A stretch of DNA of 18,349 nt. It comes from a virus. Its lineage: Duplodnaviria > Heunggongvirae > Uroviricota > Caudoviricetes. The stretch covers positions 1 to 18,349 of IMG/VR virus record IMGVR_UViG_2654587685_000017; one strand, written 5' to 3'. Position numbers: made by a program. Below are positions 9,001-12,000 of this stretch, piece by piece (the first letter of the stretch is position 1; each line of letters opens with the position of its first letter).

Positions 9001-12000
9001 CCCATCGCTTTCAGTGCATGCAATACAGTTTCCATCGAAAATTTACCTCGTCAAAAATTCTCACATACCCTGACGTCCAACGTTTGACCGCCAGCTCTCC
9101 CAGTTAAAATTCACCCAACGACCACCATTCATGGTCATACGGTCCATCACCCGATCTCCGAGGAGTGTGCTCATCGCTGCGTGATTCAGGTTCGTCAGCA
9201 TTCCGACACTACGCATCGAAGCCGTTCTGCGGTCGACTATCTGGTTCAGCGTGACCTGCTCGTTGCGCGTATCCCGCTGCATGCCAATTTCATCAAGGAC
9301 CAGAAGGTCAACTCCACAAAGCTCCTGTAAAAATTTTTCCCCGGACTGGCCGTTGTCGTAGCCGTCATGCAACACGCTCATGACATCGGACACGGTGACG
9401 ATAATCACGCTTCTCCCCTTCGCCATCAGCCGATTGCCAATCGCTGCTGCCAGGTGATTTTTACCGGTACCAGGTTTACCGCTGAACACGAAGTTTGTAC
9501 ATCCGGTCATCAATTCATCGGCAATGGATTTCGCCTGGCTCAGAGCATGGCGCTGACCGTCGTTCTGCACCCGGTAGTTCCCGAATGAGCACTTCCTGTG
9601 AAGCGGCTAGATGCCCGCACGGTTCAGGATTTTTTCAACCCGCACCTGATGATTCAGGCGGTTAATCTCCTCGCTGCGTTTTCGTCCTTCAGCAAGTTGC
9701 CATTCCCGCCACTCCTCCACCGTCCGGTACGGTGGAACCGCCCCCTGTGGTGCAAGTCTGCGAATACGTTCAAGAACCCCAACTGCCGCAATGTTTTTCA
9801 TGACACGTCACCCCCTGAATCCCGGCGGTATTTCAGTGTCCGGTTCAGAAATGTGATTCACGCAACGCTGCGCGGGCGAACGCCCCAGGCGGATAACCAG
9901 TTCATCCCATTTTTCCCGGAGTTTTGCCGGACTCATGATGTTTTTTACCCAGAACGAATCCCGCTGGAGACGCCCAAACATTTCACAAATTTGTCTGTGA
10001 GTTCTGCCATCCAGCATCCGCATTGTCCGCACGTCATTGGCCCATGCAGTCCAGTTGGGTTCTTTCGGTCTCGTGATCTCGCCATCATCGCTGGCCGCCT
10101 GCTCGTAAAGACTCACGATTCGTCCCCAGATCCACTGTGCGCACACCAAATCTTCCTGACTTCCCCACTGGCGTTTTTTCGCACTGAACACAACCGCGTC
10201 AGGGTGTCGGGTTAAAAAATTCTGTTCAGCCGTCTGCGGGTCCGGTTGCGAAGCGTCCGGACAAGAAGATCTTTTATCTGACGGATCAGGTTTTAATACT
10301 GACGGATCGGGGTCAATCATCGCCCCCCTAATCGGCAGTTTGTTATCAACAGTTGATCCATCAAAATTTGACGGGTCAACCGTTGAGGGGGCAATATTTG
10401 ACGGGTCAACTGTTAACGGGTCATTTTTTGCCGGGCTAATTTTTCTTTTCGGTTTATATGACTCACGCGCCGCCGCCGCAGCTGCTTCGAGTTTTTCCAC
10501 ATTAAGCCGATAGATATTGCTTACATTACGCCCACCGACCTTACGCTCTTCCTTCGTCAGCCAGCCCTCTTTCGCCAGTTCTGCAATAGCCGATTTCACT
10601 GTGGATTCACTTCTTGCACCGATCTGACGCCGGATAGTTTCAATGGCAGGCCATGACACGCCCTCGTCATTGCTGTAGTCTGCAAGACGGGCCATAACCG
10701 CCACCCTGGATAAGATCATGCCGGTGAAGGCGCACCCTTCCCAGACAAGACCATGAAGCTTGCTGCTCATAAACCCCCCGAACACCGTGCTTTTAGTGCA
10801 TCACCACAGCATTCCCTGCCGGGCCGCCGCGATTCATCTGGTCATACAAAACAACCGCTGACGCAACAAAATCATCGACATCCTTCACCAGCCGATCCCT
10901 CCGTTCGACGATCTCACGGTAATATTCAGAACTGTGGCTGCGCATACGGGCCACCAGCAAAGGCGGCATCGCCTTTTCGATCGCCGGTAACAGAGCCTGC
11001 ATTTTTTCAACAGCATCAGGGGTGTCTTTATCCAGCCAACGGAAAATTTTCTGGGTATTACGGGCCAGGGCTTCCGGATGGCTGTCGTCATACAGTTCCG
11101 GGAACGTCATTCCCAGCTCGAAATACGCTTTGGTAATTTTCGCAGCCGGTACTTTTTCGCCGTCCGGATGCGCCCAGACATTCATCGCCATGCGGATGTG
11201 TTCATGCTTGATTTTCATGAATCAACTCCATCAGATAAGCATGCACTACAATCACCTTCAGCATGAACTACATGTGTTTGCCCCAAACGAATGCCGCTCG
11301 CATACTCAGGCCAAATAAGCTCCCAATCATGGGGTCGTAGCTCCGCCCTACTTACTTGGCCTTCCGTCGCAGATTCGATCATAAGGGCGCGGGTTGGAGA
11401 TATAGCTGTTCGTCCAGACGCCATTTGCGATAAGTAAGATGGCGATACACCAAGTCTGGCCGCGAATTTCTTAGCATCACCAACCCTTAATGATTTAATA
11501 AACTCTTTTAATGTCATACCTTCCTCGGTTTAGTGTTTTTTTGCGAGTTTAGTGTTTAATAAACCATTAAGTCAAGTATTTGCTTGTTTAGTGATTACTA
11601 AAGATAATTACCACATGCAAAAAAAAGAAATTCGCCGTTTACGTCTCAAGGAGTGGTTTAAAGATAAAACTCTGCCACCCAAAGAGAAGAGCTACCTATC
11701 TCAACTAATGAGTGGGAGAGCCTCGTTTGGAGAAAAGGCTGCCAGAAGAATAGAGCAAACATACGGGATGCCGGAAGGGTATCTGGATGCGGAATACGCA
11801 GAACAACCGGGGGTTTCTCCACCACATGCAGGGTTAACGTCTAATCAACTGGAATTATTGCAGATTTTTTCAGCCTTCCCTGAGGATGAGCAACGCCAGA
11901 TAATCAGCGAGTTAAAGCAGAAAAAAGAATCAATGGAAGATCTCATAGCGAGATGGATTGCGGCGCAAAAATGCCGCCGCGCCTGAGTTATAAAACCGGA

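What the first reader, a model, noticed from the sequence alone, without database searches (positions are those of the whole stretch)
10337..10460. Iteron array with palindromic cores embedded in the replication-initiator coding sequence
Direct repeats TTTGACGGGTCAAC recur at 30-bp spacing (two exact, two degenerate copies), each with a TCAACNGTTGA palindrome, followed by an AT-rich tract. They encode the repetitive protein linker TVDPSN... This is the lambda ori-within-O architecture and marks the likely prophage origin.
Basis: partly seen in the sequence, partly recalled or inferred. Interest (0 to 1): 0.45.

Follow-up and report, generated by a model that had tools for sequence, protein, structure and literature searches.

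The report
Prophage replication origin inside initiator gene
A run of short palindromic DNA repeats inside a prophage's replication-initiator gene is very probably that prophage's origin of replication, built on the classic phage lambda plan but with a different repeat sequence and tighter spacing. It is a good example of a known kind, not a new kind.

Summary
The repeats are real and far beyond chance. The true unit is 15 bp (CCCG + the 11-bp dyad TCAAnnnTTGA). They sit on the minus strand in a 320-aa initiator gene (9808-10770) of a CP-933P/Sp12-type E. coli prophage. The repeats fall between an N-terminal HTH_36 domain and a C-terminal domain homologous to lambda O, at the same gene position as the lambda iterons.

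All complete homologues examined (Enterobacterales species and phages) carry in-register 15-bp arrays there. The nucleotides, including third codon positions, are more conserved than the encoded amino acids, so selection acts on the DNA. Two iteron classes track two N-domain classes.

One correction: the family-conserved AT-rich element, with paired GATC sites, is at 10262-10312.

Origin activity is inferred, not shown. In this copy the adjacent DnaC-like loader gene carries a nonsense codon and the AT-proximal site is degenerate, so this origin may be inactive. Verdict: a new member of a known kind, of moderate interest.

The parts
9808..10770 (-). Replication-initiator gene ('o homolog'), 320 aa. 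RefSeq WP_000095669.1-type HTH domain protein.
   Evidence: ORF and RefSeq annotation. PHROG 391 'replication initiation O-like', E 7e-115. Pfam HTH_36 on residues 30-76.
10471..10770 (-). Coding region for the N-terminal helix-turn-helix (HTH_36) domain, the presumed iteron-binding module.
   Evidence: Residues that separate the two iteron classes fall in the HTH and the presumed wing: positions 47, 53-54, 59 and 83.
10346..10431 (.). Iteron array: six in-register 15-bp units, each with an 11-bp dyad TCAAnnnTTGA. Units start at 10346, 10361, 10376, 10391, 10406 and 10421; the last is degenerate.
   Evidence: Homologous arrays found in the relatives.
10313..10323 (.). Isolated iteron-like site 33 bp beyond the array. 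It reads GCGATGATTGA in gene orientation, 2 mismatches from the motif. Other class-A relatives have an exact TCAATGGTTGA here.
   Evidence: The same 33-bp offset appears in relatives.
10262..10312 (.). Family-conserved AT-rich segment with GATC sites at 10268, 10284 and 10305. It is the positional equivalent of the lambda AT-rich unwinding region and the most likely unwinding element.
   Evidence: Mean AT is 0.67 at 60 nt past the array end across 83 genes. GATC occurs at 16.3 per kb here against 3.3 per kb elsewhere, with a dominant spacing of 24 bp. Duplex stability is -47.0 kcal/mol, in the least stable 3.5%. The segment aligns with lambda O residues 145-157.
10421..10460 (.). It encodes the Lys-rich stretch YKPKRKISPAKN on the N-terminal side of the array. 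Class-B relatives have no counterpart. It is a secondary candidate for unwinding.
9871..10314 (-). Coding region for the lambda O-like C-terminal domain (residues 153-300), the presumed helicase-loader recruitment module.
   Evidence: tblastn and BLASTP against lambda O: 34% identity, E 5e-18 and 3e-25.
9061..9801 (-). DnaC/IstB-like helicase-loader gene immediately downstream. It is interrupted by a TAG at 9607-9609, where O157:H7 has CAG.

Best explanation
The array at 10346-10431 is the initiator-binding (iteron) part of the replication origin of a CP-933P/Sp12-type lambdoid prophage. It is embedded in the linker-coding middle of the initiator's own gene.

Inferred mechanism:
1. Dimers of the N-terminal HTH domain bind the 11-bp dyads TCAAnnnTTGA, which are spaced 15 bp centre to centre, and a further site 33 bp beyond.
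2. The resulting nucleoprotein complex destabilises the adjacent AT-rich, GATC-bearing segment at 10262-10312.
3. The lambda O-like C-terminal domain brings in the DnaC-type loader encoded just downstream, together with host DnaB.

Shown here: the repeats are real and non-random; they are selected at the DNA level; they are conserved in position, frame and spacing across the family; they lie where the lambda iterons lie; and their sequence class tracks the HTH class.

Inferred only: binding, unwinding and firing.

In this particular copy the origin is probably silent or crippled. The loader gene has a nonsense codon and the site nearest the AT-rich segment is degenerate.
For: Statistics. The window has five hits in an exact 15-bp chain, against 0 of 2000 simulations. 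A synonymous-recoding null gives p of about 2e-4.

Gene context. The gene follows the ydaS/ydaT (cro/cII analogue) genes, and a DnaC-like gene comes next (PMC8630535 calls it an 'o' homolog).

Homology to lambda O. The C-terminal domain matches lambda O at E 3e-25. The same repeat finder recovers the four lambda iterons at O nt 349-435, against nt 340-425 here.

Family conservation. 83 of 84 analysed homologues, from about 80 Enterobacterales species and 5 phages, carry in-register 15-bp arrays in the same codon frame just after the N-domain. The 84th has a degenerate array.

DNA-level selection.
- Array Ser codons are TCA in 327 of 334 cases at unit codon 1, and TCT in 231 of 252 at unit codon 3.
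- In class A the amino acids at codon 1 are S, P, L or A, yet the third base is A in 47 of 47 units.
- Invariant residues of the N-domain, in the same genes, use mixed codons; the top codon accounts for 29-80%.

Iteron classes. Class TTGA goes with N-domains 72-78% identical to the window's. Class CTGA goes with the rest. Fixed differences lie in the HTH and the presumed wing.

Module behaviour. The N-domain, array and AT/GATC segment stay together while the C-terminal domains are swapped.

Viability. Isolated phages use relatives of this module: SfII, SfIV, phiNP, phiP27 and PhiR49_1.

Literature. Distantly related initiators (lambda O, P22 gp18, L gp18) each carry their own iterons inside the gene (PMC8022706).
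Against: There is no experimental evidence for binding or origin firing for any member of this family in the literature I could search.

Neither flanking AT-rich tract is extreme; they fall in the least stable 3.5% and 7.2% of 40-mers in the window.

The N-domain is not the lambda O Pfam family.

In this copy the loader gene is interrupted and the proximal site has 2 mismatches. The Sakai homologue Sp12 neither circularised nor replicated after induction, and its integrase is disrupted (PMC2669165).

Repeat units share ancestry, so unit counts are not independent. The outermost units of each array were selected by the motif itself.
Confidence: 0.75

Rival explanations
1. The repeats are only a protein feature: a tandem 5- or 10-residue repeat forming a flexible Pro/Ser/Asp-rich interdomain linker. 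On this view the DNA periodicity is a by-product of recent unit duplication.
For: The array is in frame and encodes a low-complexity repeat (TVDPS/NIAPS...) between two folded domains. Duplication copies codon choices as well, which would inflate the recoding test.
Against: Nucleotides are more conserved than amino acids. Third positions are fixed while residues vary among S/P/L/A and among I/V/N/F. Ser is TCA at one unit position and TCT at another, which is what a dyad requires. The same genes show saturated synonymous sites elsewhere. Each unit has dyad symmetry, which has no meaning at the protein level.
Confidence: 0.06
2. The dyads are genuine initiator-binding sites, but they serve control rather than initiation, for example autoregulation, a transcription roadblock within the early-right operon, or origin handcuffing. 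Alternatively they are an inactive relic in this defective prophage, and replication starts elsewhere.
For: The loader gene is broken in this copy and the proximal site is degenerate. Sp12 did not replicate in Sakai (PMC2669165). The AT-rich tracts are only moderate.
Against: Array position, the AT-rich neighbour and alignment with the lambda AT-rich-coded residues all match the lambda origin plan. The whole arrangement of array, site at +33 bp and AT/GATC segment is conserved in viable phages. No second cluster of the motif exists in the 18-kb window.
Confidence: 0.13
3. The sites are bound by a different protein, such as a host factor (DnaA, IHF, SeqA) or the prophage repressor/Cro analogues (PaaR2/YdaS), rather than by the initiator.
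For: DnaA-box-like 9-mers with one mismatch occur at 10343 and 10493. GATC sites are enriched next to the array.
Against: One-mismatch DnaA boxes are common by chance, and there is no IHF consensus. The motif is absent from the paaR2-ydaS operator region. Iteron class follows N-domain class, and the two are inherited as one module.
Confidence: 0.05

Closest known systems
Bacteriophage lambda ori within gene O (four iterons plus an AT-rich region)
   Same: The origin lies in the middle of the initiator gene, between an N-terminal DNA-binding domain and a homologous C-terminal domain (34% identity). The repeats are dyad-symmetric and occupy the same gene position. An AT-rich region lies on the C-terminal side. 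The gene follows the cro/cII analogues and precedes the helicase-loader gene.
   Different: The N-domain belongs to a different Pfam family: HTH_36, not Phage_rep_O PF04492. The sites are 11-bp dyads at 15-bp spacing, not roughly 19-bp sites at 20-24 bp. There is an extra site 33 bp from the array. The AT-rich segment carries conserved paired GATC sites. The loader is DnaC-type, not lambda P (PMC2669165).
P22 gene 18 and phage L gene 18 origins (L has six imprecise 11-bp repeats, TGTCCAACGGA)
   Same: These are distant O-like initiators, each with its own short repeats inside the coding region (PMC8022706). Phage L also has a short 11-bp repeat unit.
   Different: The repeat sequences differ and the initiators are at most distantly related. 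I did not align them with this family.
Stx-phage origins (933W and P27 as studied by Kozlowska et al.: six lambda-type iterons)
   Same: They are lambdoid prophages of EHEC, with an iteron number above four and an AT-rich tract next to the iterons (PMC7466680).
   Different: Those are true lambda-type O proteins and iterons. The window's iterons and N-domain are unrelated in sequence to them.
CP-933P / Sp12 cryptic prophage of E. coli O157:H7
   Same: The window is 99.9% identical over 2.6 kb to O157:H7 genomes. It carries the same paaR2-paaA2-parE2, ydaS, ydaT, 'o homolog' and DnaC-type loader genes (PMC8630535, PMC2669165).
   Different: Neither paper, on term searches, mentions iterons or a replication origin for this prophage. 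The window's loader gene has a nonsense codon that O157 strain PV15-279 lacks.
Other HTH_36-type phage initiators (ST64B Sb42, Min27 O)
   Same: They have a distantly related N-domain, followed directly by an array of dyad-containing direct repeats.
   Different: Their repeats have different sequences and lambda-like 21-24 bp spacing.

Membership tests
Lambda-type origin inside the initiator gene (ori-lambda plan) | The initiator gene lies in the early-right operon, after the cro/cII analogues and directly before a helicase-loader gene. | tested here: met
   The ydaS (Cro-like) and ydaT genes lie upstream. A DnaC/IstB-like ATPase gene lies downstream (PMC8630535).
Lambda-type origin inside the initiator gene (ori-lambda plan) | The C-terminal domain is homologous to the lambda O C-terminal domain. 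| tested here: met
   Residues 153-300 align with lambda O 145-277: 34% identity, E 3e-25; tblastn E 5e-18.
Lambda-type origin inside the initiator gene (ori-lambda plan) | The N-terminal domain belongs to Pfam Phage_rep_O (PF04492). | tested here: not met
   Lambda O hits PF04492 at E 6e-36. The window protein hits HTH_36 (27.8 bits, cut-off 25) and not PF04492.
Lambda-type origin inside the initiator gene (ori-lambda plan) | Four or more direct repeats with internal dyad symmetry lie in the middle of the gene, between the two domains. | tested here: met
   Six units lie at 10346-10431, gene nt 340-425; lambda's lie at nt 349-435. Chance is excluded.
Lambda-type origin inside the initiator gene (ori-lambda plan) | The repeats are maintained as DNA, beyond what the encoded protein requires. 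| tested here: met
   Recoding null. Family-wide fixed third codon positions while the amino acids vary, with an N-domain codon control.
Lambda-type origin inside the initiator gene (ori-lambda plan) | An AT-rich unwinding region adjoins the iterons on the C-terminal side. | tested here: met
   The segment at 10262-10312 is conserved across the family, with mean AT 0.67. It is in the least stable 3.5% of the window. It aligns with the residues encoded by lambda's AT-rich region. The amplitude is modest and unwinding is untested.
Lambda-type origin inside the initiator gene (ori-lambda plan) | Iteron geometry: sites of about 19 bp at 20-24 bp spacing. | tested here: not met
   The sites are 11-bp dyads at exactly 15 bp. 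Lambda's spacings are 20, 24 and 23 bp.
Lambda-type origin inside the initiator gene (ori-lambda plan) | The initiator binds the repeats, and the segment supports initiator-dependent replication. | not testable with these tools
   This needs EMSA or footprinting and an ori-cloning assay. No such data for this family turned up in the literature searches.
PHROG 391 / HTH_36 'replication initiation O-like' proteins | A full-length profile match. | tested here: met
   phrog_391 at E 6.9e-115, covering residues 1-320 against profile positions 1-298.
Plasmid-type iteron replicons (RepA / pi / RepE class) | The iterons lie outside the rep gene, with DnaA boxes and an AT-rich region alongside. | tested here: not met
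   The array is inside the coding sequence. Only one-mismatch DnaA-box-like 9-mers are present. The protein is of the lambda O type in its C-terminal half.

The most novel reading that the evidence does not exclude
This may be a distinct, widespread and so far undescribed class of enterobacterial phage origins. In it, 11-bp dyad iterons are woven into the initiator's linker at strict 5-codon (15-bp) phasing, and a conserved pair of Dam (GATC) sites sits in the unwinding element. That would imply methylation- or SeqA-sensitive firing. The two natural iteron classes (TTGA and CTGA), paired with a few HTH and wing residues (an insertion at position 53, K/S59 versus R, V/L83 versus A/T), would give a readable initiator-iteron specificity code.
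Probability: 0.3. Interest if true: 0.5.

Novelty: new member of a known kind. Interest (0 to 1): 0.3.

Why it matters
The finding pinpoints the probable origin of a prophage module present in about 1,555 of 5,426 complete E. coli genomes, including O157:H7 CP-933P/Sp12. Relatives occur across Enterobacterales and in viable phages such as SfII, SfIV, phiNP and phiP27.

The region is a clean natural example of dual coding, in which a protein linker and a set of DNA-binding sites share the same bases.

The two iteron classes and their matching N-domain classes offer a simple system for studying initiator specificity and replication incompatibility between co-resident prophages. The conserved GATC pair suggests a testable link to Dam/SeqA control.

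It does not change the known paradigm.

Tried and rejected
- Structure prediction. The single-sequence AlphaFold2 model of the initiator was unusable (mean pLDDT 36.8). No fold comparison was made.
- Viral-contig scan. It returned 80 near-identical loci with no useful diversity. I used genome contigs instead.
- Literature searches. Searches for the motif strings found only unrelated papers, judged from their titles and abstracts. Searches on iterons, lambdoid phages and replication protein O found no description of this family's origin. The oriJ/Rac search was not informative for this element.
- Rac link. The K-12 hit to the AT/GATC segment lies in yfdO, next to yfdN-yfdT; from memory that is the CPS-53 prophage. 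The 'Rac/Qin' comparison therefore does not apply directly.
- DnaA boxes and IHF. Only one-mismatch DnaA-like 9-mers and no IHF consensus. Rejected as the explanation.
- Internal promoters and terminators. None beyond chance between 9700 and 11700.
- The 16-kb circular 'plasmid' record made of this prophage's early region. It is tempting as evidence for autonomous replication, but the initiator and ydaT reading frames are broken there, in the initiator by single-base indels in short base runs. I do not rely on it.
- Window versus strain MB07081. The array has only 2 substitutions, both at non-motif positions. The region is mosaic, so this is weak evidence.

Full report
**What is there**

The finding lies on the minus strand inside ORF 9808-10770 (320 aa from the RefSeq start). 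In gene orientation the sequence reads as 15-nt, five-codon units:
- CCCG GCAAAAAATGA
- CCCG TTAACAGTTGA
- CCCG TCAAATATTGC
- CCCC TCAACGGTTGA
- CCCG TCAAATTTTGA
- TGGA TCAACTGTTGA

On the plus strand the pattern TCAANNNTTGA, with at most 1 mismatch, hits 10346, 10361, 10376, 10391 and 10406, exactly 15 bp apart. A degenerate sixth unit lies at 10421. Tandem Repeats Finder reports the same array at period 15 (5.2 copies) and period 30 (2.3 copies).

It arises because two unit subtypes alternate: TCAAC.GTTGA and TCAAA.TTTGA.

**Is it more than chance?**

In 2000 first-order Markov simulations of the window, none gave more than 3 hits in 75 bp or a 15-bp chain longer than 2. The observed values are 5 and 5.

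I then held the protein sequence fixed and redrew synonymous codons from local usage. Five hits occurred in 20 of 100,000 trials, and three exact hits in 33 of 100,000. The DNA motif is therefore more than the peptide repeat requires.

**The host gene and its neighbourhood**

The 2.6 kb around the gene is 99.9-100% identical to many E. coli chromosomes, including O157:H7 and O55:H7. The RefSeq annotation of the O157 copy gives this gene order:
- RelB/RelE-type toxin-antitoxin genes and a regulator on one strand;
- a Cro-like regulator, a YdaT-family gene, an 'HTH domain protein' and an 'ATP-binding protein' on the other strand.

This is the immunity and replication region of CP-933P/Sp12. There the genes are called paaR2-paaA2-parE2, ydaS, ydaT and 'a homolog of the o gene' (PMC8630535). 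Sp12 is listed among the prophages with DnaC-type loaders (PMC2669165).

The protein matches PHROG 391 'replication initiation O-like' over its full length (E 7e-115). It has an N-terminal HTH_36 domain. Its residues 153-300 align with lambda O residues 145-277 at 34% identity (E 3e-25; tblastn E 5e-18). The N-domain is not the lambda O Pfam family PF04492. The next gene is IstB/DnaC-like.

**Position relative to lambda**

The same repeat finder recovers the four lambda iterons at O-gene nt 349-435. The array here spans gene nt 340-425.

In the BLASTP alignment, lambda residues 145-157 are those encoded by the lambda AT-rich region. They align with residues 153-165 here, which are encoded by roughly 10276-10314.

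I collected 80 loci from one-genome-per-species contigs, with N-domain identity of 54-78%, and five phage loci.
- Of 84 genes analysed, 83 have at least two in-register 15-bp units right after the N-domain, and 81 have at least three. The median is 6 per gene by the first count, and the in-register arrays used afterwards hold 2 to 10 units. The units are always in the same codon frame.
- The one exception has a degenerate array.
- Homologues with entirely different C-terminal domains keep the N-domain, the array and the downstream AT/GATC segment together.

**Selection acts on the DNA**

Within arrays, Ser at unit codon 1 is TCA in 327 of 334 cases. Ser at unit codon 3 is TCT in 231 of 252 cases. 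That is what a dyad TCA...TCTGA demands.

In the window's class, the residues at codon 1 are S, P, L or A, yet the third base is A in 47 of 47 units. At codon 3 the residues are I, V, N, F or D, yet the third base is T in 46 of 47 units.

As a control, invariant residues of the N-domain in the same 83 genes use mixed codons; the top codon accounts for 29-80%. Synonymous sites are therefore saturated in this data set.

Caveat: the edge units of each array were defined by the motif itself. However, only 2 of 384 in-register units fail it.

**Two iteron classes**

The window and its closest relatives (N-domain identity 72-78%; Erwinia, Mixta, Edwardsiella, Morganella) use (T/C)CAAnnnTTGA. The Klebsiella phage Kp4866-6, at 72%, does the same. 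All other family members use TCA(A/G)A(A/T)TCTGA.

Residues that cleanly separate the two classes include position 47, an inserted R/K53 followed by S54, K/S/T59 versus R, and V/L83 versus A/T. These lie in the HTH and the presumed wing.

This fits co-evolution of initiator and site. It is also what shared descent alone would give.

**The AT-rich element**

Across the family, the AT peak (mean 0.67) lies 50-90 nt beyond the array on the C-terminal side. It contains a conserved motif of the form GATCCGTCAGTA...GATCCGTCAGATAAA.
- GATC density there is 16.3 per kb, against 3.3 per kb elsewhere in the genes.
- 75 of 83 genes have at least two GATC sites there, and the dominant spacing is 24 bp.
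- Asp-Pro inside arrays is always GAC-CCN (74 of 74), which avoids creating GATC.

In the window this element is 10262-10312, with GATC at 10268, 10284 and 10305. Its least stable 40-mer (-47.0 kcal/mol) is in the lowest 3.5% of the window.

Class-B relatives have no counterpart, because their arrays begin right after the N-domain. The lambda-equivalent element is therefore on the opposite side of the array and outside the reported coordinates.

Between the array and the AT segment there is one more site, 33 bp from the last unit. It is conserved in relatives. In the window it reads GCGATGATTGA, 2 mismatches from the motif.

**Mosaic structure**

Nucleotide similarity to class-B phages begins at about gene nt 463 and runs through the C-terminal domain. 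The N-domain plus array is too diverged to match at the nucleotide level. This two-module pattern is what I recall for lambda, 82, phi80 and 21; that comparison is from memory and was not tested here.

**State of this copy**

The DnaC-like gene has TAG at 9607-9609, where O157:H7 strain PV15-279 has CAG. In O157 Sakai, Sp12 neither circularised nor replicated after induction, and its integrase is disrupted (PMC2669165). This particular origin may therefore be silent.

**Prior knowledge**

The general principle is established. Lambda, P22 and phage L initiators each carry their own iterons inside the gene (PMC8022706), and Stx phages have six lambda-type iterons (PMC7466680).

I found no description of this family's 15-bp iterons or of the GATC pair. 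More distant HTH_36 initiators (ST64B, Min27) have other repeats at 21-24 bp spacing.

**Verdict**

Three corrections apply: the unit is 15 bp, the conserved AT-rich element is at 10262-10312, and the prophage is CP-933P/Sp12-type. Function is inferred, not demonstrated. It is a new member of a known kind, with some distinctive geometry.

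Noticed in passing
window 9607-9609 (in the gene at 9061-9801, minus strand): The DnaC/IstB-like helicase-loader gene has an in-frame TAG where O157:H7 strain PV15-279 has CAG. That is one C-to-T change, truncating the protein after 64 of 246 residues. The prophage's replication module is probably defective in this strain.
   Followed up: yes
window 9811-9870 (initiator residues 300-320): The last 20 or so residues (...EIPPGFRG) weakly match the C-terminal tail of E. coli DnaT / primosomal protein 1 in solved structures (E 0.01-0.03). This may explain the 'primosomal protein I' annotations of relatives, and it hints at a shared docking peptide.
   Followed up: no
L175 (NZ_CP148542.1, 15,977-bp circular record): A record deposited as a plasmid consists only of this prophage type's early region: cI-like and cro-like genes, ydaT, the initiator with the same array, a DnaC-like gene, the nin region, Q and lysis genes. 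No replicon is listed in its typing. It could be a lambda-dv-like autonomous circle or an assembly artefact. The initiator and ydaT reading frames are broken there, in the initiator by single-base indels in short base runs.
   Followed up: partly
L170 2324-3031 (E. coli K-12, 'phage replication protein O' pseudogene next to yfdN-yfdT; from memory this is yfdO of prophage CPS-53): This truncated replication-protein-O pseudogene keeps the AT-rich/GATC segment (88.9% identical over 72 nt) but, being annotated as missing its N-terminus, should lack the N-domain and iterons. About 1,450 E. coli genomes show the same partial match.
   Followed up: partly
window 10335-10435: Because every unit is a dyad, the array as single-stranded DNA folds into a long imperfect hairpin (-17.3 kcal/mol, z = -3.7, 0 of 200 shuffles). 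The two 33-nt halves are 76% complementary around position 10381.
   Followed up: partly
window 10343-10351 and 10493-10501: DnaA-box-like 9-mers with one mismatch each (TTATCAACA and TTTTCCACA). The first overlaps the first iteron. Probably chance.
   Followed up: partly
window 11552-12478 (plus strand): The paaR2-paaA2-parE2-type three-gene toxin-antitoxin/immunity locus lies divergent from ydaS-ydaT, as described for CP-933P.
   Followed up: partly
L171 601-1131 (E. coli MB07081) versus window 10240-10770: In a 91%-identical allele the HTH-coding part carries most of the substitutions. The array has only two, both at non-motif positions (the spacer and the central N). This looks like a mosaic junction near gene nt 300.
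   Followed up: partly
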